Source: Bacteroidia bacterium
Lineage (GTDB): Bacteria; Bacteroidota; Bacteroidia; 2-12-FULL-35-15
Length of the DNA stretch: 64,000 nt
Assembly: GCA_046594925.1 (NCBI GenBank)
Contig: JBKJQG010000357.1
Span: 3,475 to 67,474, forward strand
Direction: 5' to 3'
In this document: positions 30,059 through 57,241 of the stretch, one piece after another
How the letters are laid out: each line of letters opens with the position of its first letter
How positions within the stretch are numbered: position 1 is the stretch's first letter
Program-made: the position numbers and the translations under genes
The notes under the pieces: model-generated
The model's input: only the letters and a program-made list of their open reading frames with translations
Databases searched by the model: none
What the model was told of the DNA's origin: nothing

Positions 30059-32155
30059 TCAGACTTTCAAACCTATTACCACCACGTCATCTACCTGCTC
30101 TAATTCTTTTTTCCAATTATCGAATTCGCTTTCAATTGCAGATTTCTGATCGCTTATCGGATCCGCCGCTATTTGCACAAGTAGTTCCTTAAGCTTCTTA
30201 TACTTGAATTTTTTTCCATGAGGACCGCCAAACTGATCTGCATATCCGTCGCTGAAAAGATAAACGCAATCCCCCTTTTTCAGCTGCACCAAATGATTCT
30301 GGTATTCATCTACTTTGCCGTCAAGGTTCACACCGATAGGGAATTTGTCCGCTTTGATCTCTTGAAGTTGTCCGTCACTGACATAATACAAGGAATTAAA
30401 AGCGCCTGCATATTGAAGTTCAAATGTTCGCAGATTGAAGGAACACAGTGAAAGGTCCATGCCGTCCTTCACGCCTTGGCCTGTTTCAGATTGCCGAAGT
30501 GTTTTTGTCACGCCCGCATCTAGGTGCTTTAATATATCGGAAGGTTTTGTCAGGCCGACTTCATTTACAGCCTGAGTCAATAAGTTGAAACCAACCACGC
30601 TCATCAGAGCTCCGGGAACTCCATGTCCTGTGCAGTCCACCGCCGCGAAACAAACCACATCATTCTTTTGTTCTATCCAATAAAAATCACCACTGACAAT
30701 GTCTTTCGGCCGATAAAAAATGAAACTGTCGGACAAGATTTTTTTCCAATGATCCACTGGAGGTAGAATGGATTCCTGGATGCGCTTGGCGTAGTTGATG
30801 CTGTCCGTGATCTCTTTTTTCTGTAAAGTAATTTCTACGTTCCGTTGTTCCAACAGATCATTCGCTTTCTGCTTGAGTTTGTAGCGATTGAACAGCAATG
30901 CCGACAACAGGAGTACGATCAGGATCGCCGTAAGCATCACCACCATCCACAGTTTGTTCTTGTTGAGCTGCAGGTCGCGGATCTCGCCGTCTTTCGTAAG
31001 AAGCGCAATTTCTTTTTCTTTCTTTTCACTTTCGTATTTTGTCTGAAGCTCATTCATCTGCCTGCTGGATTCTAAGTTGAAAATGGAATCTTTTACCCCC
31101 ATCAGCAGCCCTTGGTATTCATAGGCTTTCTCAAACTTTTTTTGTGCCTGGTAGGCGTAAGCGATCGATTCGTAGCCGCGTTTTAGAAGATCGTTGGATC
31201 CGATCTCTTTGCTGATCTGAAGAGCCTGTTGATAATATTCGAACCCTTTTTCATATTGCTTTCGGCTGCAATAGTTAGAACCCATGCTAAACAATGAGAT
31301 CGCCAATCCGTATTTGTCTTTCAGCTTCTTACGGATCTCTAAGGACTGTTCAAAATAATCGAATGCTTTTTCGAACTGGCTTTGGGATTCGTATACACTG
31401 CCAATGTTGTTCAACGTAAGCGCAGTGCCATTGTCATCGTTGTTTTCTTTTCTGACCGTTAGGGCCATAAAATAATATTCTAAACTTTTTTCGTAATCTC
31501 CTTGCAGCTTGTAAACCAAACCTATATTGTGCAAGGAGCTGCCGACTCCTTTCTTATTGCCGACCTCTTTTTTAACAGCCCATGAACGGTTGTGAAATTC
31601 CAAAGCCTCCTTGTATTTTCCCTGGCCTTGATAGATCAAAGCAATGTTGTTAAGTGTTCCACCCAGCTGCCATTTTCCAACATCTGAATTTTCAACAAGG
31701 GATAAGGATTGCATGTAGTATTTCAGCGCTTTGCTGTAGTCGGATTTGTCGTCATAGATCAGTCCGATGTTGTTTAGTGCAACCGCTAATTTTGCTTTAT
31801 CGTTAAGCCTTAGAGCAAGCTCATGAGCAGCCTCGTGGTGTTTTAACGCTTCGTCATAATTGCTGCTGTAATAGAGTACAAGGCCCAACACATTGTGGGC
31901 ATTCATTTCCCCCTGGAGATAACCTGCTTTTTTTGCCAATGCCAATGCATTAGTGGCATATTGAGTCGCCTGGGCGGAATCATCGGCTACAAATTCATAA
32001 CCAATCTCGTTCCAGATCCTTACTTTCAAAGTATCTACGGGATTTTTCGATAGCTCTGCTTGCAAACTGTCGACCATCTTTTTTGATCTTTGTGCAACGG
32101 AACTTGCACTCAAGGACAATGAAAGACAAAAAAGAAGCAGTTTATTCTTGTTCAT
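30059..32155 (-). CDS. TPR-repeat sensor with TM helix and C-terminal SpoIIE/PP2C-type Ser/Thr phosphatase domain
   Basis: Signal peptide, about 9 TPR units (NIG.VY...G.Y.KAL.Y...SL), a single TM helix (LWMVVMLTAILIVLLLSALLF), a coiled coil, then a PP2C domain (VSGDFYW...AVDCTGHGVPGALMS...DGYADQ). Confidence 0.85.
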   Translation of the reverse strand: MNKNKLLLFCLSLSLSASSVAQRSKKMVDSLQAELSKNPVDTLKVRIWNEIGYEFVADDSAQATQYATNALALAKKAGYLQGEMNAHNVLGLVLYYSSNYDEALKHHEAAHELALRLNDKAKLAVALNNIGLIYDDKSDYSKALKYYMQSLSLVENSDVGKWQLGGTLNNIALIYQGQGKYKEALEFHNRSWAVKKEVGNKKGVGSSLHNIGLVYKLQGDYEKSLEYYFMALTVRKENNDDNGTALTLNNIGSVYESQSQFEKAFDYFEQSLEIRKKLKDKYGLAISLFSMGSNYCSRKQYEKGFEYYQQALQISKEIGSNDLLKRGYESIAYAYQAQKKFEKAYEYQGLLMGVKDSIFNLESSRQMNELQTKYESEKKEKEIALLTKDGEIRDLQLNKNKLWMVVMLTAILIVLLLSALLFNRYKLKQKANDLLEQRNVEITLQKKEITDSINYAKRIQESILPPVDHWKKILSDSFIFYRPKDIVSGDFYWIEQKNDVVCFAAVDCTGHGVPGALMSVVGFNLLTQAVNEVGLTKPSDILKHLDAGVTKTLRQSETGQGVKDGMDLSLCSFNLRTFELQYAGAFNSLYYVSDGQLQEIKADKFPIGVNLDGKVDEYQNHLVQLKKGDCVYLFSDGYADQFGGPHGKKFKYKKLKELLVQIAADPISDQKSAIESEFDNWKKELEQVDDVVVIGLKV

Positions 32156-32226: not shown

Positions 32227-34191
32227 TTATAGTCTAACACCAATAATGCAAACATCGTCCACTTGCTCCAAGGAGGATCTCCAGTTTTTGAAGGTCACTT
32301 CCAGTTCTTCTTTTTGCTTTTCCGATGAAAGGTCGGAAATTCTCAGCAAAAGTTCCTGCATGGGTTTGTATTTAAATTTTTTCCCCTTCTCGCCCCCGAA
32401 CTGATCGGCAAAACCGTCGGTGAACAAAAAAATACTGTCGCCCTTTTCCAGCTCAACGGTATGTGTCGTAAAAGGCAGCGGATTCTCGGTCTTGCCGATA
32501 GGCTGTTTGTTGGCCTTGATCTCCTTCAGCTCTTTCTGCTGGATGAACCAAAGCGGATTGTTTGCTCCGGCCCATTTTAATTCGACCTTGTTTTCATCCT
32601 TTGATCTCCTGATGGAACAAAGTGAAATGTCCATTCCATCTTTTACTTCCTGGCTTCCCTTAGAAAAGGTATCCAGCACCAATTCTCGGGTCTTATCGAG
32701 GATCTTTCCCGGATCGGTGATGCCAAATTCCAAAACAGTTCTGTTCAATGCATTGGAGCAGACCACAGAAACAATGGCGCCCGGAACTCCGTGCCCGGTA
32801 CAGTCCGCAGCTGCCAGAAAAAGTGTATCATCTTTTTGCTCTAGCCAGTAAAAATCACCGGCGACAATGTCTTTCGGCTGATAAAAGATAAAACTTTCGG
32901 GGAGCACCTTTTTAACCATGTGATCAGGCGGAAGGATAGCTTCCTGTAACCTTTTCGCATATGTAATGGAATCGAGGATCTCTTTCTGTTTTTCATCGAC
33001 GATGTTCTTCTGTTCTTCGATAATGCTTTTTTGTTTTCTGGTAATGCGTAGACGGTTAAAGACAAAAACAGAGAACAGCATCACTAGAAAAAGCCCACTC
33101 ACTGTGGCATACAGAATGATTTTTTGCTTTTGCTTTTGTTCGGCTGCAATTGCGGTTTCTTTTTCGTGTTCTTTTTCATCCAGCGCTTTTTGTTTTTCGT
33201 AAGCATACTGCATTTCGTGTTTCATGACTTCTTTTTGACTGTTTGCACTTTTCATGCTGTCATTCATCTGGTTATACAATTCATACATTGCAAGAGATTC
33301 TTTGTATCGGCCAGCTTTCTTATAACATTTGAACAAAGCGAGACTCAGGTAATTCAAATGAAGCACCGCACCTGAAGCTTCGGCGAGCACTAATCCTTTC
33401 TCATAAGAAGCGATGGCTGTTTTCAAATCTCCGGCGTTGTCATAGGTGCTGCCGATGTTGTAATGCGACATCGCCAGTCCCCTTTTGTCGCCCAACTGTT
33501 CGCGTATGATTAGAGACTTGTTGAAATAATATCTTGCTTTATCAATATCATTAAGGTTCACATAAATGGTTCCCATATTATTATACGCTGTGCCAATCCC
33601 GATTTTGTCATCGATCTCTTCTCTCAGTTTTAAACTGCGGGTATAGTATTCTATGGCAAGAGTGTTTTCTTTTTTTTGTGCATAAATAGCTCCTATATTA
33701 TTATAAGATGCAGCCATTCCGTCTTTCTCTCCAAGTTCTTCGCGTATTTTTAGACTTCTTTTATAGCACTCAAGCGCTTTGTCCGATTCTTCCTGATCTG
33801 TATAAATAGCACCCATGTTGTTGATGCAGGAAGCCTCACCTCTTTTATCGCCGATTTCCACACGGAGCTTTAAGCTTTTTGTAAAAAGATCAATGGCTCT
33901 TGCATAATCACCTTTAAAATAGTAAGTGGTGCCTTGTGTGTTGAGTGCTTGTCCCTGGTGCTTCTTGCTTCCGACTTTTGTTGCCAGGTCGTACTGAAGC
34001 TGCGCAAAATAATATGAACTGTCGGGGTTGGAATAAATATACCCGTCGAAGCTTATGTAAGTCATGGCATCTAGTCGCGCAGTATCCGGCTGTTTCGGAT
34101 CGTTCCAAATTTTCCATAAGCTGTCGAGGTTTACCTGCGCAATGCCTTGCAGACTGATAAAAAAAAGGAAGGTCGATGTGATCCGTTTCAT
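32227..34191 (-). CDS. TPR-repeat sensor with TM helix and C-terminal SpoIIE/PP2C phosphatase domain (paralog)
   Basis: Same architecture as the 30059 gene: conserved N-terminal DSLWKIWNDPKQPDTARL, TPR repeats, TM helix, then ...YAKRLQEAILPP...VAGDFYW...AADCTGHGVPGAIVS. Confidence 0.85.
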   Translation of the reverse strand: MKRITSTFLFFISLQGIAQVNLDSLWKIWNDPKQPDTARLDAMTYISFDGYIYSNPDSSYYFAQLQYDLATKVGSKKHQGQALNTQGTTYYFKGDYARAIDLFTKSLKLRVEIGDKRGEASCINNMGAIYTDQEESDKALECYKRSLKIREELGEKDGMAASYNNIGAIYAQKKENTLAIEYYTRSLKLREEIDDKIGIGTAYNNMGTIYVNLNDIDKARYYFNKSLIIREQLGDKRGLAMSHYNIGSTYDNAGDLKTAIASYEKGLVLAEASGAVLHLNYLSLALFKCYKKAGRYKESLAMYELYNQMNDSMKSANSQKEVMKHEMQYAYEKQKALDEKEHEKETAIAAEQKQKQKIILYATVSGLFLVMLFSVFVFNRLRITRKQKSIIEEQKNIVDEKQKEILDSITYAKRLQEAILPPDHMVKKVLPESFIFYQPKDIVAGDFYWLEQKDDTLFLAAADCTGHGVPGAIVSVVCSNALNRTVLEFGITDPGKILDKTRELVLDTFSKGSQEVKDGMDISLCSIRRSKDENKVELKWAGANNPLWFIQQKELKEIKANKQPIGKTENPLPFTTHTVELEKGDSIFLFTDGFADQFGGEKGKKFKYKPMQELLLRISDLSSEKQKEELEVTFKNWRSSLEQVDDVCIIGVRL

Positions 34192-35231: not shown

Positions 35232-35651
35232 ATGAAAACTATCATAAGAATACTAGTTTTAGTTTTAGTTTGCAACACAACTGGCTTTGCGCAATGCACA
35301 GGTTTTGCGAAAAAAAGCATTTCCAGGCTAAAACCATATTTGAATACCCAGCAGGTCTTCGGCACCGTTCTTTTGAATGGCGACAAGACACAGGTTTCTT
35401 CCACTTTTTATTTCGGTGACGAATACCGTTTGCTCATCAGTGCCGATGAAAAATTAGGAAAGATTCAGCTGAACGTAAAGGATGCAGAAGGGAAAGTGGT
35501 TTATTCCACAAAAGCTTACGGTTCCATCATGTGGGATTTTAACGTGGAATCCACCCAAGATCTCACTCTGGAAGTGTTGACGCCTCCAGGATCTGAGGCG
35601 CAGTTAGAGGACAAAAGCGGTTGTGTGGCCATCATCGTCGGGTTCAAGTAG
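35232..35651 (+). CDS. small secreted protein of unknown function
   Basis: Signal peptide MKTIIRILVLVLVCNTTGFAQC; 139 aa. Confidence 0.5.
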   Translation: MKTIIRILVLVLVCNTTGFAQCTGFAKKSISRLKPYLNTQQVFGTVLLNGDKTQVSSTFYFGDEYRLLISADEKLGKIQLNVKDAEGKVVYSTKAYGSIMWDFNVESTQDLTLEVLTPPGSEAQLEDKSGCVAIIVGFK

Positions 35652-35668
35652 ACCTCAGAAAACATCGC

Positions 35669-35702
35669 AAATCCCTGTGCCACCGGTATGGGGATTTTTT
35701 TT
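35669..35702 (+). terminator. rho-independent terminator
   Basis: aaatccctgtgccaccggtatggggatttttttt. Confidence 0.6.
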
Positions 35703-35744
35703 GCAGATAATTGAATATTAAGTATCTTTACACCAGTTCTTTAA

Positions 35745-35914
35745 CACTTATCAAGAAAGGCGGAGGGACAGACCCTTAGATGCCTTAGCAACCCTGATAG
35801 TCAGGAGAGTGGAGTACAGAGTCAGGAGAATTTCTCCGAACTCCATTCTTCCAACTCCCTACTCAAAAGAAGGTGCTAATTCCTGTCTCGCATTTATGCG
35901 CGAACAGATAAGTC
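35745..35914 (+). promoter_or_regulatory. SAM-I riboswitch aptamer with an expanded P3 arm
   Basis: Near-consensus blocks CUUAUCAAGAaAGGCGGAGGGAcaGaCCC..GAUGcC...GCAACC and GGUGCUAAUUCCUG, a P4 hairpin cgcau-uu-augcg, and a P1 closing ACAGAUAAG. About 75 nt is inserted in P3. Confidence 0.8.
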
Positions 35915-35951
35915 AGAGTATATTTTTGAAATTATAAAAACAAAACCATAT

Positions 35952-35994
35952 AACTCCTCTGACTTTAAAAAGTGAGAGGAGTTTTTATTTTTTT
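35952..35994 (+). terminator. riboswitch expression-platform terminator
   Basis: aactcctctga-ctttaaaaag-tgagaggagtttttattttttt. Confidence 0.65.
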
Positions 35995-36012
35995 AAAAAT
36001 TCCTTCCGATTG

Positions 36013-36047
36013 CCTTCTCCTTCCGATAGCTATCGGGAAGGAGAAGG
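36013..36047. repeat. 35-bp near-perfect palindrome sharing the CCGATAGCTATCGG core with the element at 57214
   Basis: ccttctccttccgatagctatcgggaaggagaagg. Confidence 0.8.
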
Positions 36048-36069
36048 TGTTCGAAGGACGGATGAGGGC

Positions 36070-36828
36070 ATGGATGCACTAAACAGATTCAGCGATCGTG
36101 TAGACTACTACATAAAATTCCGGCCGGATTACCCGTCGGAAGTGTTGACGTTCTTAAAAGAGAAAGGATTTTTTAAGAAGGACAGCGTGATCGCAGACAT
36201 TGGTTCTGGAACCGGCATTTCCTCCGAGCTGTTTTTGAAAGACGGAAATGTGGTATATGGGGTGGAGCCGAACAAAGAAATGCGCGACGCTGCCGAAAGA
36301 TTGATGAAAGGGCAGGCCACATTTTGCAGTACAAATGGAACCGCAGAGCACACACAGTTGGCTACAGGAAGCATTGATCTTGTTGTGGCGGGGCAAGCTT
36401 TTCATTGGTTTGACAAAGAAAAGTGCAAGGAAGAGTTCAAGCGGATTCTGAAAAAGGACGGGGCCGTGTTGTTGATGTGGAACGATAGACGGACCGACAC
36501 AAGTCAGTTCTTACAGGCTTATGAGGATTTTATTAAAATGTTTGCAACAGATTACTTACAGGTAAACCACAAGAATATAGATGAAAAGATATTTGACGAT
36601 TTTTTTGGTGAAGGCCATTACAAAATGGAATTGTTTCTGAATTATCAGCATTTCGATTTAGAAGGATTAAAGGGACGAATTCTGTCTTCATCCTACATGC
36701 CCGCAAAAGGGCACAAAGATTTTGATTTCATGATGAGTGTGCTGAAAAAGACATTCACGCGCTTCGCAGAAGAGGGAAAGGTGACGATAGAATACGATAC
36801 GAAAATTTATTACGGGAAATTGAAATGA
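36070..36828 (+). CDS. class I SAM-dependent methyltransferase
   Basis: Motif I VIADIGSGTGISS, motif II-like DLVVAGQAFHWF and post-motif VLLMWN. Start taken at MDALNRF; the ORF track also allows an upstream start at 36010. Confidence 0.75.
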   Translation: MDALNRFSDRVDYYIKFRPDYPSEVLTFLKEKGFFKKDSVIADIGSGTGISSELFLKDGNVVYGVEPNKEMRDAAERLMKGQATFCSTNGTAEHTQLATGSIDLVVAGQAFHWFDKEKCKEEFKRILKKDGAVLLMWNDRRTDTSQFLQAYEDFIKMFATDYLQVNHKNIDEKIFDDFFGEGHYKMELFLNYQHFDLEGLKGRILSSSYMPAKGHKDFDFMMSVLKKTFTRFAEEGKVTIEYDTKIYYGKLK

Positions 36829-38258
36829 GGATTCGGCTGTTCCTTTTATTCTTGTTTATTTCTGTCAGCGGCTTTTCTCAAAAAAGCTACCTGGATTCGC
36901 TGTGGCATGTTTGGTCGGATGAAAAACAGCCCGATACCAGCCGCTTAAATGCTATTTATGATTTTGCCTGGGAGGGCTATCTTTCCAACCAGCCAGATAG
37001 CGCCTATTATTTTTCAAAGGCAATGCTCAGCTTTTCGAAAAAGAAAGGGTTGAAGAAGTACGAAGCGAAAGCAAACAATCTGCAGGGAACTTACTTTTAT
37101 AATACGGGCGATTACACCAGATCAATGGAATCGAACATAAAGAGTCTGGATCTCATGAAAGAGATAAATGATAAGAAAGGAATTGCGGCAGCACTGTCAA
37201 ACATAGGAGTTCTTTATAAGATCCAGGGTGATCTCACAAAAGCGATTGATTTCTATTCACAAAGCTTAAAAATAAAAGAGGAGCTCGGTGATCAGAAAGG
37301 CATTGGCGTATCCTATAATAATATTGGAAGCATCTACAATAGCCTCGGAGATTGCACACGTGCACTTTATTACTTCAACGAGGGTTTGAAGATCTGGGAA
37401 AAGCTGGGGGATAAAAAAGGAATAGCCGGAATACTAAATAATATTGGCATGGCCCAATTGGCGCAGAAGGATTACGTAAAAGCCCTGGAGAGTTATGACA
37501 GGAGTTTAAAGTTGCGACAAGAGATAGACGATAAGCCGGGAATTGCTAAAGCATTCGGCAGTATAGGCTCCCTTTATTTTTCGCAGAAAGAATATGAAAA
37601 AGCAATCGATTATTGTAACAGGTGCTTGGAGTTAAACATTGAAGTGCAGGACAAACAAGGTCAGGCGATAGCCTATGTGAATCTAGGGAGCATTTATCTT
37701 GCGCAAAAAGATTATCCCAAAGCGATCCTATACCTAAATAGAGGATTGAAGCTCTCTCAGGATATTGGTGCGGTGATGGAAACTCAGTCGGCGAGTGACA
37801 ATCTCTACAGCGTTTACAAGCTCATTGGGAAGAATAAAGAAGCACTTGAGATGCATGAACTCTTCGTTCTTATGCGTGATAGCATCAGTAGTGACCAGTC
37901 AAAAAAGGAGATTGTTCGGCAGGAATTCAAATATCAATATGAAAAAAAGGCGGCTGCTGATAGCGTAAAAGCAACAGAAGAAAAGAAGGTGGTGGAAGCG
38001 CAATTCAAGCAAGAGCAAACACAGAGGTATGTTCTATATGGCGGTGTGGCTCTTATGATAGTATTTGCAGGATTTATGTTCAACCGCTTCAGGGTCACCC
38101 AGAGGCAGAAAGAGCTCATAGAACTGCAAAAGCAAATTGTGGAACAAAAACAAAAAGAAGTATTGGATAGTATTTACTATGCAAAGCGAATACAACAGTC
38201 TTTACTTCCGACTGAAAAATATATTTATAAAAGCATGACAAGGCTAAAGAAATCATAA
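36825..38258 (+). CDS. TPR-repeat membrane protein, a paralog of the TPR-PP2C sensors that ends where the phosphatase domain would begin
   Basis: N-terminal YLDSLWHVWSDEKQPDTSRL, about 8 TPR units, a TM helix, and a C-terminus ...EVLDSIYYAKRIQQSLLP followed by a stop. Start overlaps the upstream gene (ATGA). Confidence 0.8.
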   Translation: MRIRLFLLFLFISVSGFSQKSYLDSLWHVWSDEKQPDTSRLNAIYDFAWEGYLSNQPDSAYYFSKAMLSFSKKKGLKKYEAKANNLQGTYFYNTGDYTRSMESNIKSLDLMKEINDKKGIAAALSNIGVLYKIQGDLTKAIDFYSQSLKIKEELGDQKGIGVSYNNIGSIYNSLGDCTRALYYFNEGLKIWEKLGDKKGIAGILNNIGMAQLAQKDYVKALESYDRSLKLRQEIDDKPGIAKAFGSIGSLYFSQKEYEKAIDYCNRCLELNIEVQDKQGQAIAYVNLGSIYLAQKDYPKAILYLNRGLKLSQDIGAVMETQSASDNLYSVYKLIGKNKEALEMHELFVLMRDSISSDQSKKEIVRQEFKYQYEKKAAADSVKATEEKKVVEAQFKQEQTQRYVLYGGVALMIVFAGFMFNRFRVTQRQKELIELQKQIVEQKQKEVLDSIYYAKRIQQSLLPTEKYIYKSMTRLKKS

Positions 38259-39710
38259 ATGAAGGTCCGGCTGCTCATAGTATTCGTTTTGATCTCATTA
38301 AGTGGCTTTTCACAAAAAGCTTACTTGGATTCCCTTTGGAGAGTTTGGGCCGATGTAAAACAGCCTGATACTGCAAGGCTTGCTGCAATGTATGATTTTG
38401 CTTGGGATGGCTATCTCTTCACCCAGCCCGACAGCAGTTATTACTTCAGTAAAATGATGATGGAATTCGCCAGGAAAAAAGGGTTGAAGGAATTTCAGGC
38501 AAAAGCGAGAAACCTTCAGTTTAGTTATTTTTTTGGTATAGGAGATATAGCAAAAGCGGAAAAAGCCAATAACGAAGCAATGATCCTGTGGCAGGCAATT
38601 GATAATAAGCTGGGACTTGCTGCAAGCTGTACCAACTTTGGGATCCTTTATCAGGTGCAGGGCAATTACCCCAAAGCGATCGATTATTACACACTCAGCC
38701 TAAAATACAACGAAGAGATAAAAAACAATAGCGGTATCGGCACTTCGCTTCATAACATCGGACATGTGTATGAGGATCAATCCGACAATAAAAAGGCTGT
38801 TGATTACTATCTGCGGAGTCTTAAGATCCGGGAGAAAGAAGGTGAAAAAGCAAGGATAGCGGAATCCGAAGTGAACCTTGGTTCAGTTTACCTGAGCCTT
38901 CATGACTATGAGAAGGCGATGAAGAGTATTGAACGAAGTTTGAAGTTATTTATCGAAGTGGATAATAAGGGTGGAGAGGCAGCCGCGTTGGGGAATATGG
39001 GAATGCTGTACACTGATAAAAAAGAATATGATAAAGCGATCGATTATTATTCCCGAAGCTTGAAATTGCAACAGGACATAGGTGACAAGATCGCTATTGC
39101 AATTTCCGATGTAAACATCGGCAGAGTATACCTCGCGGAAGAACAATATGAAAAAGCGATCCCTCTTTTAAAAGAAGGGCTTGCCATTAGCAAGGAAGTT
39201 GGCGATGCGTCGGGATTAAAACAAGCAAGCGGAAGCCTGTCAGAGGCATTTAAAAAAACAGGAAATTACCGGGAAGCTCTTGAAATGCATGAGTTGTTCC
39301 TTACAATGTGGGACAGTATAAACAGTGAAGAATCTAAAAAAGAGCTTGTGCGGCAGGAGTTTAAATATGAATATGAAAAAAAGACAACGGCTGACAGCGT
39401 TCGGACAACCGCTGAAAAAAAAGTAGTCGCGGCACAGTTCCGGCAAGAGCAAACAGCGCGCTATGCCCTGTATGCAGGATTAGGGCTTCTGCTGGTATTC
39501 GGAACCTTCATGTACAATCGTTTTCGAAAATCGCAAAGGCAAAAGAACATTATCGAAGAGCAAAAGCTGATTGTGGAAATGAAGCAAAGGGAAGTTCTGG
39601 ACAGCATCCATTATGCAAAACGAATTCAACAATCCCTTTTGCCAAATGAGAAATACATTGATAAACAATTGAAGCGTTTATCAAACAAGGATAAAAATAG
39701 TTTGAACTAA
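38259..39710 (+). CDS. TPR-repeat membrane protein, second truncated paralog lacking the PP2C domain
   Basis: Same architecture; ends ...EVLDSIHYAKRIQQSLLPNEKY... and then stops. The start abuts the previous stop (TAAATG). Confidence 0.8.
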   Translation: MKVRLLIVFVLISLSGFSQKAYLDSLWRVWADVKQPDTARLAAMYDFAWDGYLFTQPDSSYYFSKMMMEFARKKGLKEFQAKARNLQFSYFFGIGDIAKAEKANNEAMILWQAIDNKLGLAASCTNFGILYQVQGNYPKAIDYYTLSLKYNEEIKNNSGIGTSLHNIGHVYEDQSDNKKAVDYYLRSLKIREKEGEKARIAESEVNLGSVYLSLHDYEKAMKSIERSLKLFIEVDNKGGEAAALGNMGMLYTDKKEYDKAIDYYSRSLKLQQDIGDKIAIAISDVNIGRVYLAEEQYEKAIPLLKEGLAISKEVGDASGLKQASGSLSEAFKKTGNYREALEMHELFLTMWDSINSEESKKELVRQEFKYEYEKKTTADSVRTTAEKKVVAAQFRQEQTARYALYAGLGLLLVFGTFMYNRFRKSQRQKNIIEEQKLIVEMKQREVLDSIHYAKRIQQSLLPNEKYIDKQLKRLSNKDKNSLN

Positions 39711-39732
39711 CGGTTAAGCAAGAGATATATTT

Positions 39733-42700
39733 ATGAGTGATATACGGACAGAATTAGAAAGGCGGATACTGGTGATCGATGGTGCAATGGGCACCATGAT
39801 TCAGCAATACAAATTAGAGGAAAAGGATTTTCGTACCAAGCGCTTTGCCGATTGGCACAAAGATCTGAAAGGGAACAATGATCTTTTGTCGATCACTCAA
39901 CCGCACATCATTAAGGCCATTCACAAAGAATACCTGAAAGCGGGAGCCGACATCATTGAGACGAATACCTTCAGTGCCACCACCATCGCCATGGCGGATT
40001 ACGACATGCAGGAATTTGCTTACGAGCTGAATTACGAATCAGCCAAGATTGCCAAAGAGGCAGTATTGGAATATCAAAAAGAGAGCGGAGACACAACCCC
40101 GAAATTTGTAGCAGGCGCTTTTGGCCCGACCAACAGAACACTTTCCCTGTCCCCCAATGTGAACGATCCCGGATTCCGGGCTACCACTTTTGATGAATTG
40201 GTTGTTGCTTATTCCGAACAAGCAAAAGGCTTGATCGAAGGAGGCTGCGACTTACTTTTGGTAGAAACCATTTTTGATACACTTAACGCGAAAGCTGCTT
40301 TGTTCGCCATTCAGAATGTTTGCAAGGAGGAGAACATAAAAATGCCAGTAATGGTTTCCGGAACAATTACGGATGCCAGCGGAAGAACTTTGTCGGGACA
40401 AACCACCGAAGCATTTCTGAACTCCATTTCGCACGTTGATCTTTTGAGTGTTGGTTTGAACTGCGCCTTGGGAGCAAAGGACATGCGTCCTTATTTGGAG
40501 GAACTTTCAGACAAAGCACCGTTTTACGTGAGTGCTTATCCGAATGCCGGTTTGCCCAATCAGTTTGGGGAGTACGATCAGGATGCTCATGAGATGGGAC
40601 ATCAGATAGAAGATTTTTTGCGTGCCGGATTCCTGAACATTGTCGGAGGCTGCTGCGGAACAACTCCAGCTCACATCAAACGCATTGCAGAGTTGGCAAA
40701 AGTTTCCAAGCCGAGGAAGAGACCTGTGGCGGACACGCTGATGCATTTGAGCGGACTGGAACCCTTGACCCTACGTCCTGAAAGTAATTTCATGAACGTG
40801 GGTGAACGAACAAATGTAACAGGTTCTAAAAAGTTCCTGCGATTGATCAATGAAGGAAATTACGAAGAAGCTTTGTCGATTGCCAAAGATCAAGTGGATG
40901 GAGGAGCACAAGTGATTGATGTGAACATGGATGAAGGGATGTTGGATAGTGAAGCCGCCATGACGAAGTTTTTGAATCTTATCGCTTCCGAGCCAGACAT
41001 CAGCAAAGTGCCCATCATGATAGACTCTTCGAAGTGGAGCGTGATCGAGGCGGGATTGAAATGCGTGCAAGGAAAAGCGATCGTGAATTCCATTTCTTTG
41101 AAAGAAGGGGAAGAGAAATTCATTGAGCACGCCAACAAGATAAAACAATACGGCGCGGCTGTAATCGTCATGGCTTTCGACGAGCAAGGCCAGGCGGATA
41201 CTTTGCAACGCAGGATCGACATTTGCAAACGGGCTTACGATGTGCTTGTCGAGAAAGTGAATTTCCCTCCGCAGGATATAATATTCGATCCGAATATTTT
41301 TCCGGTTGCGACCGGAATGGAAGAACACCGCTTGAATGCCCTGGATTTTTTCAATGCAACAAAATGGATCAAAGAAAATCTTCCGCACGCAAAAGTGAGC
41401 GGTGGTGTGAGTAATGTTTCATTTTCTTTCCGTGGGAACGACCACGTGAGAGAGGCGATTCATAGTTCTTTCTTGTACCACGCCGTTAAGAACGGAATGG
41501 ACATGGGAATTGTAAATCCAGCACAGCTACAGGTTTATGACGACATTGAAAAGACTTTGCTGGAGTTGGTAGAAGATGTCTTGCTGAACAGAAGGGATGA
41601 TGCAACGGAAAGATTAGTGGAACATGCAGAATCTTTAAAAGGTGTTACGCGGGAAAAAACTGAAAAGGACGAGGCTTGGAGAAAAGGAACCGTGGAAGAA
41701 AGATTGAGCTATGCTTTGGTAAAAGGATTAGTGGAATACATTGATGTCGATACAGAAGAAGCCAGATTGAAATTGGGCCGACCCTTGCATGTGATCGAAG
41801 GTCCTTTGATGGACGGGATGAATGTGGTGGGTGATTTGTTCGGAAGTGGTAAAATGTTTTTGCCGCAGGTGGTGAAGAGTGCGCGTGTGATGAAGAAGGC
41901 AGTTGCTTATTTGGAACCTTATCTTCAGGCAGAAAAAGAAGCAAACAAATTGGCGGGAATTGTTGGTAACGGAAGAACCAATGCTGGAAAGATCCTGATG
42001 GCGACTGTTAAAGGCGATGTACACGACATCGGTAAGAACATAGTCGGCGTAGTATTGGCCTGTAACAATTATGAAATCATCGATTTGGGTGTAATGGTCT
42101 CTGCAGATAAGATCCTCGAAGAAGCAAAAAAGCAGGAGGTCGACATCATCGGCCTGAGCGGCTTGATCACTCCTTCCTTGGATGAAATGGTGCACGTTGC
42201 CAAGGAAATGGAACGTTTGGGATTTAAAACCCCTTTGCTCATTGGCGGTGCTACCACTTCGAAAGTGCATACTGCCGTAAAGATAGCGCAGAATTATTCC
42301 GGTCCTGTCGTACATGTGAATGATGCAAGTAAGTCCGTTCCCGTTGCCAGCAGCCTGATCTCGGATGAATTGCGTGATGCTTTCATGGCCGATATTACAA
42401 AAGACTATGAGCGTGTTCGTGAGCAAAACAAGAATGCTCAGTCGCAGAATAAATACATTTCCATCGCTGAGGCCCGTGAAAATAAATTTCCGGTCGATTG
42501 GACAAAACGGGAAATCGTAAAACCCAGTTTCATTGGGACTAAAGTCATTACCGATTATCCGATCAATGAGATCGCTGAGTACATTGACTGGACACCGTTT
42601 TTCATTTCCTGGGAGATGAAAGGTTCTTACCCGAAGATCCTGAAAGACCCGACAAGAGGTGAGGAAGCTAGAAAACTTTTTGACGATGCGCAAGCGATGC

Positions 42701-43854
42701 TGAAGAAGATCATTGCTGAAAAATGGTTGCAGGCAAATGCTGTGATCGGAATTTATCCTGCGAAAGCAGTGGGAGATGACATTGAAGTGTATGAGGATGA
42801 AAGCTGCAAAAAATTGGAAACTACATTTCACACTTTGCGTCAACAAACTAAAAAACCAGCAGGCCAATACAATGTAGCACTGTCCGACTTTATGCTTCCC
42901 AAAGACCTCGCCCCCAGCCCCTCTCCGAAGGAGCGGGGAGGCGCTCCGAGATATCATACAACGGATTCAAAGAATTGGAGTCGAAATTTGATTCACGCAA
43001 AGAGTATGCGTAAAGAACCAACCCCTGCTGAGGAAAAATTATGGCATGAGTTACGCAATAGAAAGTTGGAGTCGAAATTCAGAAGACAACATCCAATCGG
43101 ACAATTCATTGCAGATTTTGTTTGCATAGAGCAGAAACTGATCATTGAAGTAGATGGAGAGATACACGATCATCAGAAGGAATATGATGATGGAAGAACG
43201 TATATGCTGGAAGACATAGGATACAGAGTCATTCGCTTTTCCAATGAATCGGTGTTAAAATCGTTTGACGAAGTAATTGCAAAAATCAACGAAGAACTCA
43301 CACCCCTCTCTTTCGGAGAGCGGCCGGGGGTGAGGTCCGAGTGCGACTATATTGGTGCGTTTGCACTAGCAACAGGCTTCGGTATCGACGAACATGTGGC
43401 CCGTTTCGAGAAAGACCACGATGATTATTCAGCCATCATGTTGAAAGCACTTGCCGATCGCTTGGCGGAAGCTTTTGCGGAATTGATGCATAAGAAAGTG
43501 AGAACCGAATTCTGGGGATATGCTAAAGATGAAAATCTTAAAAACGAAGAATTGATCAAAGAGGAATATGCAGGGATTCGTCCCGCTCCAGGCTATCCGG
43601 CCCAACCTGATCATACCGAAAAACCCATTATCTGGAAATTGCTGGATGTGGAGAAGAATACCGGGATGATCTTAACTGAAAGCATGGCCATGGTTCCGAC
43701 GGCTGCTGTAAGTGGCTTGTATTTTGCAAATCCGGCTTCGCATTATTTTGGAATTGGGAAAATTAAGAGGGACCAAGTAGAAGAGTATTCAAAAAGAAAA
43801 GGAATGAGTTTGGATAAAGCTGAACGCTGGTTAGGTCCTAATTTGGCGTACTAA
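39733..43854 (+). CDS. metH: B12-dependent methionine synthase carrying an in-frame ~145-aa DUF559 endonuclease-like insertion in the reactivation domain
   Basis: All four MetH modules are recognisable: Hcy-binding, pterin-binding, the B12 cap/binding DxHxxG-like region ([11 protein letters not shown]), and the AdoMet activation domain (...[15 protein letters not shown]...). The 1,373-aa length compares with about 1,227 aa for canonical MetH. Confidence 0.9.
42907..43333 (+). mobile_element. inserted cassette within metH: REP-like direct repeat, DUF559 (Vsr-like PD-(D/E)XK) module, REP-like direct repeat
   Basis: DUF559 hallmarks: [44 protein letters not shown]......D..R...[14 protein letters not shown]. 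Flanks gcccctctccgaaggagcgggg...ctccgag and acccctctctttcggagagcggccggggg...gtccgag encode SPSPKERGG and PLSFGERPG. Interior GC content is lower than the flanks. The cassette interrupts the segment aligned to E. coli MetH DFVAPKLSGKADYIGAFA. Confidence 0.55.
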
Positions 43855-43875
43855 TATTTTTTATAAATTTGACGA

Positions 43876-51091: not shown

Positions 51092-51907
51092 ATGGCTCTC
51101 ATCTTAAATATCGAAACAGCAACTACTGTTTGCAGTGTTTCTCTGGCACGAGATGGCGAGCTACTTTCTTTTAAAGAACAGAATGGGGACTATTCTCATG
51201 CTGAAAATCTGACCCTGTTTATTGAAGACGTTTGCAAACGAGCAAACATTTCTCTCAAAGATGTTGATGCAATTGCTGTGAGCAAAGGCCCGGGTTCATA
51301 TACAGGATTGCGGATTGGAGTGAGTACTGCGAAAGGACTGTGTTATTCTCTCGATAAGCCTTTGATTGCGATTAACACTTTAAAACACCTCGCGTTATCG
51401 GTTCTCCCAATTCTCCCAACTCTCACCACTCCCGACTCCCAACTCCCGACTCCCGACTCCCAACTCCCCACTCCCCACTCCCCACTCCCGACTCCCGACT
51501 CCCAACTCCCAACTCCCAACTCCCAACTCCCGACTCCCAACTCCCCACTCCCCACTCATTTGTGTCCCATGCTCGATGCAAGACGGATGGAAGTGTACTG
51601 TGCAGTTTATGATTCCAAAGGAAATGAAGTGAGAGCGACTGCCGCCGAAATCATTGATGAAAATTCTTTTGGGGAGATTTTCAAAACAAGCAAAATTGTT
51701 TTTTTTGGTGATGGCGCTGCTAAATGCAAAGGAGTTCTTTCACACAACATTAATGCTGTTTTTCTGGATGACATTGTTCCTTCTGCTAAAGACATGATTA
51801 AACTTGCTGAGGAGGCTTTTAATGCAAAAACTTTTGAGGATGTAGCTTACTTTGAACCGTTCTACCTGAAAGATTTTGTGGCTGGAAAAAAGAAAGGGGA
51901 AGCCTAG
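51092..51907 (+). CDS. tsaB: tRNA threonylcarbamoyladenosine biosynthesis protein TsaB (YeaZ) with an in-frame low-complexity insertion
   Basis: N-terminal LILNIETATTVCSVSLARDGELL...AVSKGPGSYTGLRIGVSTAKGL..S...PLIAINTL and C-terminal ..LDARRMEVY are typical TsaB. An about 45-aa PTPDSQLPTPDSQL... tract is inserted between them. Confidence 0.8.
   Translation: MALILNIETATTVCSVSLARDGELLSFKEQNGDYSHAENLTLFIEDVCKRANISLKDVDAIAVSKGPGSYTGLRIGVSTAKGLCYSLDKPLIAINTLKHLALSVLPILPTLTTPDSQLPTPDSQLPTPHSPLPTPDSQLPTPNSQLPTPNSPLPTHLCPMLDARRMEVYCAVYDSKGNEVRATAAEIIDENSFGEIFKTSKIVFFGDGAAKCKGVLSHNINAVFLDDIVPSAKDMIKLAEEAFNAKTFEDVAYFEPFYLKDFVAGKKKGEA
51403..51556 (+). repeat. heptanucleotide microsatellite (ACTCCCN)~22 inside tsaB
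   Basis: actcccg/actccca/actcccc units in perfect tandem. Every three units (21 nt) encode a 7-aa (D/N/H)S(Q/P)LPTP peptide repeat. Confidence 0.9.
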
Positions 51908-57213: not shown

Positions 57214-57241
57214 AATCCCGATAGCTATCGGGATCGTTTTT
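57214..57241 (+). terminator. palindrome plus T-run (atcccgatagctatcgggat-cgtttttt)
   Basis: 20-bp perfect palindrome with the same CCGATAGCTATCGG core as the element at 36013, followed by T6. Confidence 0.6.

What the first reader, a model, noticed from the sequence alone, without database searches (positions are those of the whole stretch)
35745..36069. SAM-I riboswitch with a giant P3 arm heading an apparent methyltransferase-TPR-TPR-metH operon
The aptamer has the conserved SAM-I cores (CUUAUCAAGAnAGGCGGAGGGA, GCAACC, GGUGCUAAUUCCUG, P4 hairpin, P1 closing GAUAAG), but carries about 75 extra nucleotides in P3. It is followed by a strong intrinsic terminator at 35952-35994, and then by a 35-bp palindrome directly in front of the first ORF.

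The four downstream genes are co-oriented with overlapping or abutting stops and starts (ATGA at 36825, TAAATG at 38258, a 22-nt gap before metH). The SAM signal therefore probably reaches metH through a class I SAM-dependent methyltransferase and two PP2C-less TPR membrane proteins. SAM control of metH is established in other phyla. The interposed SAM-consuming methyltransferase and the sensor-like proteins are not a described arrangement.
Basis: partly seen in the sequence, partly recalled or inferred. Interest (0 to 1): 0.6.

Follow-up and report, generated by a model that had tools for sequence, protein, structure and literature searches.

The report
SAM riboswitch with oversized P3 arm
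This is a genuine SAM-sensing riboswitch controlling a methionine-synthase operon in an uncultured Bacteroidota bacterium; its oversized side arm and the methyltransferase next to it are normal for this bacterial group, so it is a variant of a known switch and not a new kind.

Summary
Rfam scores 35745-35914 as SAM-I (74.6 bits, cut-off 44.4), with a 72-nt insert at the tip of P3. An antiterminator/terminator pair follows, then a strong palindrome, then four tightly packed co-oriented genes ending in metH.

1. The giant P3 is not unique. Among relatives, 32 of 58 metH leaders and 50 further metagenomic leaders carry 60-100-nt P3 hairpins. The sequences are unalignable and the arms are built from ~7-nt repeats. 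This fits the known category of 'variable insertion'.
2. SAM-I -> methyltransferase -> metH is a conserved unit in this clade. The two TPR genes are a later insertion seen in only four genomes. They are truncated, PP2C-less paralogs of the neighbouring SpoIIE sensor phosphatases.
3. The palindrome is a copy of a dispersed hairpin element and is not part of the switch.
4. Co-transcription through metH fits the sequence (no terminators, no promoter boxes at 15 junctions) but is untested.

It recurs at two sites in relatives.

Verdict: a new variant of a known kind, of modest interest.

The parts
35669..35703 (+). Intrinsic terminator of the upstream gene (35232-35651). It marks the 5' boundary of the leader unit.
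   Evidence: Terminator-like site with 13 pairs followed by a T-run.
35700..35730 (+). Candidate Bacteroidota-type promoter: TTTG (35700-35703), 19 nt, TATCTTTA (35723-35730; one mismatch to TAnnTTTG). It would place the transcription start just before P1.
   Evidence: Read directly from the sequence. The consensus is from my own knowledge of Bacteroidetes promoters. Not tested.
35745..35914 (+). SAM-I (S-box) aptamer with P1-P4 and all conserved core nucleotides. The P2-loop ACAG (35768-35771) can pair with J3/4 CUGU (35883-35886) to form the class's pseudoknot.
   Evidence: RF00162 at 74.6 bits, gathering 44.4; own model R1 at 94.8 bits. The pseudoknot was read from the sequence; it reads CACG/CGUG in the L005 group.
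35796..35867 (+). P3 extension: a 72-nt insert at the tip of P3 forming one long imperfect hairpin, with a purine/G-rich 5' arm and a C-rich 3' arm.
   Evidence: Insert shown by cmscan; fold; no other copy in 1.24 Mb; relatives carry 60-100-nt equivalents.
35910..35918 (+). 5' strand of the antiterminator (AAGUCAGAG). It overlaps the 3' strand of P1 (35907-35913).
   Evidence: Pairs with CUCUGACUU at 35957-35965. The forced antiterminator fold is -71.5 against -79.3 kcal/mol for the terminator fold. The pairing covaries in relatives.
35952..35996 (+). Intrinsic terminator of the riboswitch (hairpin 35952-35983 plus T-tract). Its 5' arm is the antiterminator's partner.
   Evidence: I4; -18 kcal/mol, z -6.1; conserved in relatives.
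36002..36057 (+). Strong palindrome/hairpin (core 36013-36047) between the terminator and the methyltransferase start. It is a copy of the dispersed TCCCGATAGCTATCGGGA-type element and is probably an insertion.
   Evidence: -35.3 kcal/mol, z -5.6. The core motif occurs at 10 sites with at most 1 mismatch in 1.24 Mb, against about 0.4 hits expected, including window 57218 and L005's P4 tip. In L004, L005 and L040 the ATG follows the T-run directly.
36070..36828 (+). Class I SAM-dependent methyltransferase (252 aa; Methyltransf_11; Tmt1/HvrF-like; substrate unknown). It is the conserved partner of metH behind SAM-I. The public annotation (P0001, 272 aa) starts at the TTG at 36010 inside the palindrome, which is probably wrong.
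   Evidence: Pfam; NCBIfam hits all below cut-off; PDB best 9e72 HvrF at 49 bits; orthologs start MDxLNRF; always adjacent to metH.
36825..38258 (+). TPR protein 1 (477 aa): signal peptide, TPR array, one TM helix, short tail ending just after 'AKRIQQSLLP'. PP2C-less.
   Evidence: 38% identical to the upstream SpoIIE paralog up to the start of the phosphatase domain.
38259..39710 (+). TPR protein 2 (483 aa), a tandem paralog of TPR1 (55% identity).
   Evidence: orthologous pairs in L003 and L081/L082, a single copy in L085.
39733..43854 (+). metH, cobalamin-dependent methionine synthase, 1373 aa with all five canonical domains.
   Evidence: Pfam; NCBIfam NF007024 at 2098 bits.
42904..43341 (+). 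In-frame DUF559 (Vsr-like PD-(D/E)XK endonuclease) module inside the MetH activation domain (about aa 1059-1203), bounded by 35-nt inverted repeats (42904-42938 and 43303-43337).
   Evidence: PF04480 E 2.9e-35 at aa 1087-1189; TIRs 86% complementary; absent from L001, L003 and L005 at the same loop.

Best explanation
This is a working SAM-I (S-box) OFF riboswitch in the leader of a metH operon of an uncultured Bacteroidota bacterium.

Transcription probably starts around 35737-35744.
- When SAM is abundant, it binds the four-way-junction aptamer and locks P1. The segment AAGUCAGAG cannot pair downstream, so the terminator hairpin (35952-35983) forms and RNA polymerase stops at the T-tract.
- When SAM is scarce, P1 opens and AAGUCAGAG pairs with CUCUGACUU, the terminator's 5' arm. 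Transcription then reads through into the methyltransferase, the two TPR genes and metH, most likely as a single mRNA.

The other features are add-ons.
- The 72-nt P3 extension is a self-contained hairpin on the solvent-exposed tip of P3. It is a tolerated 'variable insertion' of a type that is the rule in this clade and is built from short (~7-nt) repeat units mirrored on both arms.
- The palindrome in front of the first gene is an inserted copy of a dispersed hairpin element.
- The methyltransferase is an old, conserved partner of metH.
- The PP2C-less TPR genes were inserted later between the two.

Shown: aptamer identity, the alternative pairings and their covariation, and the comparative gene order. 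Inferred: SAM binding, termination in vivo, and co-transcription.
For: Aptamer: RF00162 at 74.6 bits across the full model. Core helices P1, P2 and P4 show compensatory changes in relatives, and the P3 base flips from G-C to C-G in a whole subclade.

Expression platform: terminator and antiterminator. The pair covaries: AAGUCAGAG/CUCUGACUU here, AAGCCGGAG/CUUCCGGU in L005-L008, AAGUCGGAA/UUCCGAC in others.

Context: 58 of 80 metH loci from related genomes carry a SAM-I aptamer on the same strand upstream.

P3:
- 32 of 58 have P3 interiors of at least 40 nt, and nearly all fold as a single hairpin with negative z-scores.
- 50 further metagenomic leaders (nearly all 163-199 nt) are followed by metH or MT-metH in 45 of 45 classifiable cases.
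- The arms show 7-8-nt periodicity in 22 of 28.
- Paired positions change less than unpaired ones, 12% against 31%.
- The three other genomes that carry the TPR insertion have short P3s (L003, L081, L085), so P3 length is independent of operon content.
- Literature: long non-conserved stem-loop insertions at fixed sites are a known property of riboswitches (PMC2258182).

Operon:
- ATGA overlap, abutting stop/start and a 22-nt gap.
- No plus-strand terminator-like site between 35996 and 43700.
- No TAnnTT[T/A]G box in 15 junctions upstream of metH.
- The only strict Bacteroidota promoter pattern nearby lies before the next gene (43842-43871).

MT-metH adjacency holds in every context examined, amid otherwise unrelated neighbours.
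Against: - No experimental data. SAM binding, termination and read-through are all inferred.
- The P3 extension keeps a similar size (about 70-100 nt) across many lineages while its sequence turns over completely. That could mean it is selected for a function and not merely tolerated.
- Strictly compensatory double changes between close pairs are rare: 3, against 36 broken pairs. Base-pair-level conservation is therefore weak, and the window's own arms show no significant periodicity (p 0.35 and 0.08).
- A -35 kcal/mol hairpin 12 nt before the start codon could affect translation or mRNA stability, so calling it a passive insertion may understate it.
- Promoter scans are consensus-based and cannot exclude an internal promoter inside the TPR genes.
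Confidence: 0.8

Rival explanations
1. The long P3 arm is a selected functional module of these metH leaders and not a passive insertion. It might tune co-transcriptional folding and the decision time of the switch, offer a double-strand entry site for RNase III-type turnover of the terminated leader, or dock a protein.
For: Length is kept at about 70-100 nt in more than 80 leaders although the sequences are unalignable. Hairpin formation is preserved with z-scores mostly between -2 and -6. Paired positions evolve more slowly than unpaired ones. The 7-8-nt modular periodicity is consistent across lineages. All classifiable long-P3 leaders are metH or MT-metH leaders.
Against: Close relatives with near-identical cores work with 13-15-nt P3 tips (L002, L004, L025, L081, L083). 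There is no conserved loop or bulge motif. Few compensatory changes are seen. The metagenome pattern was derived from metH leaders, so the apparent metH specificity is partly circular. Any large insert at this position has to fold on itself just to keep the aptamer intact, which explains the hairpin conservation without any extra function.
Confidence: 0.2
2. The riboswitch controls only the methyltransferase (and perhaps the TPR genes). metH is transcribed mainly from an internal promoter created when the TPR genes were inserted.
For: The TPR pair is a secondary insertion that moved metH 2.9 kb away from the leader. A sigma-70-like match lies at 39702-39731, and Bacteroidota promoters are hard to recognise.
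Against: The sigma-70-like hits are no more frequent than in shuffles (17 against 15.7) and are not the relevant promoter type. No TAnnTT[T/A]G box lies before metH in the window or in 14 other junctions. The gaps are 0-22 nt with overlapping codons. No terminator lies between the genes. In relatives without TPR genes, metH sits 10-140 nt behind MT or directly behind the leader.
Confidence: 0.12
3. The P3 extension, like the palindrome, is a mobile palindromic (MITE/REP-like) element that landed in the P3 loop.
For: These genomes carry many small hairpin elements. The TCCCGATAGCTATCGGGA palindrome sits in L005's P4 tip and before the window's first gene. Related hairpins lie in spacers and in frame in MetH. 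L003 has an enlarged P4 instead of P3.
Against: No second copy of either arm of the window's P3 insert was found in the window or in 1.24 Mb of related loci at up to 3 mismatches; the only hit is a heptamer array at 51.4 kb. Each lineage has its own arm sequence made of its own short repeats. That points to in-place growth by slippage and not to transposition of a defined element.
Confidence: 0.12
4. The aptamer is a decaying relic disabled by the insertion, and the terminator acts constitutively or not at all.
For: None directly, other than the unusual size.
Against: The full-length model match is well above threshold with every conserved core position intact. The pseudoknot and the antiterminator pairing are preserved. 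The same architecture is maintained in dozens of species.
Confidence: 0.03

Closest known systems
SAM-I / S-box riboswitch (Rfam RF00162), e.g. Bacillus subtilis yitJ and Thermoanaerobacter tengcongensis metF leaders
   Same: Four-way junction with the conserved core, P2-loop/J3-4 pseudoknot, P1 3' strand shared with an antiterminator, intrinsic terminator, SAM-OFF logic, and control of methionine biosynthesis genes including metH.
   Different: A 72-nt extension on P3; a Bacteroidota host using a terminator platform; the regulated unit contains an uncharacterised methyltransferase and two TPR membrane proteins ahead of metH.
'Variable insertions' in peripheral riboswitch helices (Barrick & Breaker 2007, PMC2258182)
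   Same: A long, non-conserved, self-folding stem-loop at a fixed permissive site that leaves the aptamer core intact.
   Different: Here the insertion is kept at about 70-100 nt through a whole clade, is built from ~7-nt repeat units mirrored on both arms, and coexists with close relatives that lack it.
Clostridium acetobutylicum ubiG-mccBA operon (S-box, T-box and antisense control; PMC2566862, listed, abstract only)
   Same: Precedent for an S-box riboswitch associated with a sulfur amino-acid operon whose first gene, ubiG, is a SAM-dependent methyltransferase (that function is from my own knowledge).
   Different: There the S-box lies downstream and convergent to the operon (abstract), and the operon converts methionine to cysteine. 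Here the leader is in sense, the partner is metH, and the methyltransferase would be made when SAM is low.
TPR-TM-SpoIIE/PP2C sensor phosphatases of Bacteroidota (the window's own 30059-32155 and 32227-34191 genes); TPR sensor kinase FimS
   Same: The operon's TPR proteins share the signal peptide, TPR array, TM helix and juxtamembrane coiled segment.
   Different: They end at the first helix of the phosphatase domain and have no output domain. This truncated form is conserved at 477-483 aa in four genomes.
Inteins and homing-endonuclease genes; Rickettsia palindromic elements that insert in frame into genes (own knowledge)
   Same: For the DUF559 module: an endonuclease ORF or palindromic element sitting in frame in surface loops of a conserved enzyme, recurring at the same sites in different species.
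   Different: No Hint/splicing motifs, a Vsr-like PD-(D/E)XK nuclease, and 35-nt inverted-repeat hairpin ends. It is presumably retained in the mature protein.

Membership tests
SAM-I riboswitch (RF00162) | Sequence and secondary-structure match to the family covariance model above the curated gathering score | tested here: met
   74.6 bits against 44.4, model positions 1-108 of 108.
SAM-I riboswitch (RF00162) | Pseudoknot between the P2 terminal loop and J3/4 | tested here: met
   ACAG (35768-35771) can pair with CUGU (35883-35886), read. The L005 group has CACG/CGUG at the same places. The family model does not cover this feature.
SAM-I riboswitch (RF00162) | Expression platform in which the 3' strand of P1 is shared with an antiterminator that competes with an intrinsic terminator | tested here: met
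   35910-35918 pairs with 35957-65. Energies are -71.5 (antiterminator) against -79.3 kcal/mol (terminator). The pairing covaries across relatives.
SAM-I riboswitch (RF00162) | Located upstream of methionine/SAM metabolism genes | tested here: met
   metH lies downstream here, and in 58 of 80 related loci and 45 of 45 classifiable metagenomic leaders.
SAM-I riboswitch (RF00162) | Selective binding of S-adenosylmethionine and SAM-dependent termination | not testable with these tools
   Needs in-line probing, ITC or in vitro transcription.
Riboswitch 'variable insertion' | A non-conserved sequence at a fixed peripheral site that folds into its own stem-loop | tested here: met
   The insert sits at the P3 tip and forms a single hairpin in the window and in nearly all of 32 relatives. 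It cannot be aligned between lineages.
Single SAM-regulated operon MT-TPR-TPR-metH | Co-orientation, minimal spacing, no internal terminator or promoter | tested here: inconclusive
   Spacing and scans fit, but only transcript mapping can show co-transcription.
Dispersed palindromic (REP/MITE-like) element, for the 36002-36057 palindrome | Multiple copies of the same palindrome at unrelated loci, with presence/absence polymorphism at orthologous sites | tested here: met
   10 sites with at most 1 mismatch to the 14-nt core in 1.24 Mb, about 0.4 hits expected, including window 57218. Orthologous leaders L004, L005 and L040 lack it.
Intein, for the DUF559 insert in MetH | Hint-domain splicing motifs: N-terminal Cys/Ser/Thr, C-terminal His-Asn followed by Cys/Ser/Thr | tested here: not met
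   The insert begins [11 protein letters not shown] and ends GVRSE|CDYIG. There is no His-Asn and no Hint-domain hit.
Mobile/homing endonuclease module, for the DUF559 insert | Endonuclease ORF with intact catalytic motif, defined ends, and presence/absence at identical sites in orthologs | tested here: met
   PF04480 E 2.9e-35 with the D...E.D..H block conserved in all copies. 35-nt TIRs. Present at two sites in 11 loci and absent from the others. Nuclease activity and mobility were not tested.

The most novel reading that the evidence does not exclude
The heptamer-built P3 arm may be a selected add-on that changes how SAM-I makes its decision in this Bacteroidota clade, for example as a folding timer or an RNase/protein docking helix. 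The methyltransferase always co-regulated with metH may be an unrecognised component of cobalamin-dependent methionine synthesis. Together with the in-frame, apparently non-splicing DUF559 endonuclease modules that recur at two sites in MetH, the locus would then show selfish hairpin DNA colonising both an RNA sensor and its enzyme without disabling either.
Probability: 0.15. Interest if true: 0.65.

Novelty: new variant of a known kind. Interest (0 to 1): 0.38.

Why it matters
As a riboswitch, this adds little in kind: SAM-I control of metH by termination is established. Three things are useful.
1. It documents that a large uncultured Bacteroidota clade keeps a 70-100-nt repeat-built hairpin on P3. 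That is a natural test set for asking whether peripheral extensions affect riboswitch kinetics, and a caution for size-limited riboswitch searches.
2. It gives a strong guilt-by-association lead for an uncharacterised class I methyltransferase family that sits between a SAM-I leader and metH in every instance examined.
3. The side observation of endonuclease-plus-hairpin modules inserted in frame at two recurrent sites of MetH is not described in any paper I could find and can be tested directly.

Tried and rejected
- A strict regex for the SAM-I core found nothing, not even the window's own aptamer, which has AGAA where I required AGAG. I replaced it with a looser regex and then a covariance model.
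- RNAalifold on 14 long-P3 leaders recovered the core helices but nothing in the extension, because the extensions cannot be aligned by column. I used per-sequence folding and close-pair comparison instead.
- I tested whether the two AGUCAGGAGA repeats in the P3 insert act as decoy antiterminators for the terminator's 5' arm. The forced folds are 19-26 kcal/mol worse than the MFE. Rejected.
- I tested whether the P3 insert is a copy of a dispersed repeat. No second copy turned up at up to 3 mismatches. Rejected for P3, accepted for the palindrome.
- Rfam at E<=1 over 35600-36200 gave nothing for the palindrome beyond sub-threshold generic hairpin hits.
- NCBIfam and PDB searches for the methyltransferase gave only generic class I hits, all below cut-off. 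The best is HvrF at 49 bits, so no substrate can be assigned.
- Literature searches for long-P3 SAM-I, for SAM-I/metH/methyltransferase in Bacteroidetes, and for DUF559 in MetH found no specific description.
- A homolog search with the insert alone returned only free-standing DUF559 proteins. MetH-embedded copies appeared only when flanking MetH sequence was included.
- I did not run structure prediction. It would not bear on the riboswitch question.

Full report
**Observation**

A scan of the whole window against Rfam finds one family above its curated threshold. It is SAM-I (RF00162) at 35745-35914 on the plus strand, 74.6 bits against a gathering score of 44.4. It covers all 108 model positions and has 72 unmodelled nucleotides (35796-35867) at the tip of P3 (same result).
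- The aptamer folds as expected, with the extra nucleotides forming one long imperfect hairpin that continues P3 (z -3.9).
- The P2 loop ACAG (35768-35771) can pair with CUGU in J3/4 (35883-35886), which is the class's pseudoknot (read).
- Downstream, AAGUCAGAG (35910-35918, overlapping the 3' strand of P1) is complementary to CUCUGACUU (35957-35965), the 5' arm of a terminator hairpin (35952-35983). A T-tract follows.
- A palindrome at 36002-57 folds at -35.3 kcal/mol.
They encode a class I methyltransferase, two TPR proteins and MetH.

**Source and relatives**

The methyltransferase is 100% identical to an NCBI protein on a 68.7-kb contig. The MetH N-terminal domain retrieves 80 loci, almost all from uncultured Bacteroidota MAGs, with the best at 95% identity. 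I built a covariance model from ten short-P3 leaders and searched all loci. 58 of the 80 have a SAM-I aptamer upstream of metH on the same strand.

**The giant P3 is clade-typical**

- Of the 58 aptamers, 32 have a P3 interior of at least 40 nt, mostly 71-100 nt. Nearly all of these fold into a single long hairpin with negative z-scores.
- A subclade with MetH 80-89% identical has a compensatory flip at the P3 base (GCAACC...GGUGC becomes CCAACC...GGUGG), and almost all of its members carry the long arm.
- Searching metagenomes for that base with a 66-96-nt gap returned 80 loci, and 50 pass the covariance model (nearly all 163-199 nt). All 45 with enough downstream sequence are followed by metH (34) or by the methyltransferase, with metH after it where the contig extends far enough (11). 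The pattern came from metH leaders, so this shows how widespread the architecture is. It does not show that the architecture is exclusive to metH.
- The extensions cannot be aligned between lineages.
- Their arms are periodic with a best period of 7-8 nt in 22 of 28 cases. They are therefore inverted pairs of short tandem arrays. The window's own arms show the same best period without reaching significance.
- Between close pairs, paired positions change less than unpaired ones (12% against 31%), but true compensatory doubles are rare.
- The window's nearest aptamer relatives (L002, L004, L081, L083) have 13-15-nt P3 tips. L003 has a short P3 and an enlarged P4.

Barrick & Breaker (PMC2258182) describe such long, non-conserved, self-folding insertions at fixed sites as a general property of riboswitches. 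My reading is a tolerated, fast-evolving variable insertion that must stay a hairpin to keep P3 closed. A dedicated function is not excluded.

**Expression platform**

The antiterminator/terminator pairing covaries across relatives: AAGUCAGAG/CUCUGACUU, AAGCCGGAG/CUUCCGGU and AAGUCGGAA/UUCCGAC. That is good comparative support for a SAM-OFF termination switch. Alternative pairings between the P3 insert and the terminator arm are energetically poor.

The upstream gene has its own terminator (35669-35703). A Bacteroidota-like TTTG-N19-TATCTTTA element precedes P1 (sequence reading; the consensus is from my own knowledge).

**The palindrome**

Its core, CCGATAGCTATCGG, belongs to a dispersed palindrome (TCCCGATAGCTATCGGGA). 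There are 10 sites with at most one mismatch in 1.24 Mb, against about 0.4 hits expected. They include a second window copy at 57218 and the tip of P4 in L005.

In L004, L005 and L040 the start codon follows the terminator's T-run almost directly, so the window's extra ~70 nt is an insertion. Other relatives carry different small GC-rich hairpins at the same place. Rfam has nothing for it. It is not an integral part of the riboswitch, and any effect on translation is untested.

The public gene model for the methyltransferase starts inside this palindrome (TTG at 36010; P0001 is 272 aa). Orthologs begin at the ATG at 36070.

**Operon content**

- The methyltransferase lies between the leader and metH in L003, L004, L005, L006, L008, L012, L013, L019, L040 and L047.
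- Six further orthologs at 61-78% identity, looked up independently, are all immediately upstream of metH among otherwise unrelated neighbours. All five of those loci for which DNA was available have SAM-I leaders.
- L004 has the window's upstream genes, then leader, MT and metH, without TPR genes.
- The TPR genes appear only in the window, L003 and L081/L082 (two copies each) and in L085 (one copy).
- The two TPR genes are 55% identical to each other. They are 38% identical to the upstream 654-aa signal-peptide-TPR-TM-SpoIIE protein and end at the first helix of its phosphatase domain. The 'PP2C-less' label is therefore correct.

The history is an old SAM-I-MT-metH unit into which truncated sensor paralogs were later inserted.

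The methyltransferase has only generic matches. All NCBIfam hits are below cut-off and the best PDB match is HvrF at 49 bits. Its substrate is unknown.

Co-transcription fits the evidence: overlapping or abutting codons, no plus-strand terminators within the unit, no Bacteroidota -7 box at 15 junctions before metH, and a strict promoter pattern only before the next gene. It remains an inference.

**Side finding**

MetH is 1373 aa because a 145-codon DUF559 (Vsr-like) module is inserted in frame in a loop of the activation domain (about 42904-43341). It is bounded by 35-nt inverted repeats that are 86% complementary.
- The same site is occupied in L002, L009, L013, L025 and L083.
- A second site, the linker before the B12-binding Rossmann domain, is occupied in L020, L022, L031, L051 and L167.
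- L020 has a bare hairpin footprint at the first site.
- All 11 copies in 1.9 Mb of fetched DNA are inside metH.
- The repeat ends resemble a solo hairpin in L004's MT-metH spacer.
- There are no intein motifs.
- At least 35 of the best 120 MetH C-terminal hits carry PF04480, including Flavobacterium species.
- The nearest free-standing relatives are ~120-160-aa DUF559 proteins.
- I found no paper describing this.

**Verdict**

This is a real SAM-I riboswitch with a clade-typical oversized P3, controlling a conserved methyltransferase-metH unit that here also carries inserted TPR genes. It is a new variant of a known kind and of modest interest. The methyltransferase link and the DUF559 modules are the leads most worth following.

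Noticed in passing
window 42904-43341 (inside metH 39733-43854); also L002, L009, L013, L025, L083 (same site) and L020, L022, L031, L051, L167 (second site): An in-frame 145-codon DUF559 (Vsr-like endonuclease) module with 35-nt inverted-repeat hairpin ends sits in a loop of the MetH activation domain. It recurs at two distinct MetH sites in relatives, always with the catalytic block intact. There are no intein motifs. All 11 copies in 1.9 Mb of fetched DNA are inside metH. At least 35 of the best 120 MetH C-terminal database hits carry it. I found no literature on it.
   Followed up: partly
window 51413-51557, inside ORF 51092-51907 (+): About 20 tandem copies of the heptamer CTCCCAA (21-nt super-period) lie in frame inside a TsaD/TsaB-family gene; Pfam matches only the first ~104 residues. 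The units resemble the 3' arm of the riboswitch's P3 extension.
   Followed up: partly
window 57218-57235; also L005 9006, L008 17550, L015 3288, L024 20056, L037 (two sites), L046 316, L069 2056: The perfect palindrome TCCCGATAGCTATCGGGA is dispersed across distantly related Bacteroidota genomes at unrelated loci: 10 sites with at most 1 mismatch to the 14-nt core, against about 0.4 hits expected. Its function is unknown; it could be a terminator, a protein-binding site or a mobile hairpin.
   Followed up: partly
L004 9945-9998; L002 about 1860-1900; L003 2078-2230; L006, L013, L014, L015, L019, L025 and L031 spacers: A family of ~40-nt GC-rich hairpin elements (CCCCTCTCC...GGAGAGGGG...GGGGGTGAGGTC and variants) occupies spacers between terminator and start codon or between MT and metH. 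The same elements form the ends of the DUF559 module and occur as in-frame footprints in MetH (L020, L051).
   Followed up: partly
window 36010-36069: The public gene model for the methyltransferase (272 aa, identical to P0001) starts at a TTG inside the palindrome. Orthologs start at the ATG at 36070 (MDxLNRF), so the annotated N-terminus is probably wrong.
   Followed up: yes
window 30059-32155 (-) and 32227-34191 (-): Two full-length signal-peptide-TPR-TM-SpoIIE (PP2C) sensor phosphatases lie just upstream on the opposite strand. With the two truncated copies in the operon, the window holds four paralogs. Relatives (L005, L006, L012) also have several near metH.
   Followed up: partly
L047 8968-10917 compared with L008 (same MAG, JADJMM01): One MAG carries two copies of the leader-MT-metH region with identical aptamers. 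In L047 the methyltransferase and MetH matches are partial, which may mean a degraded duplicate or an assembly artefact.
   Followed up: no
L003 1849-1996: In the relative that shares the TPR pair, the SAM-I aptamer has a normal P3 but a P4 enlarged by about 35 nt. Both peripheral hairpin tips therefore accept insertions in this clade.
   Followed up: partly
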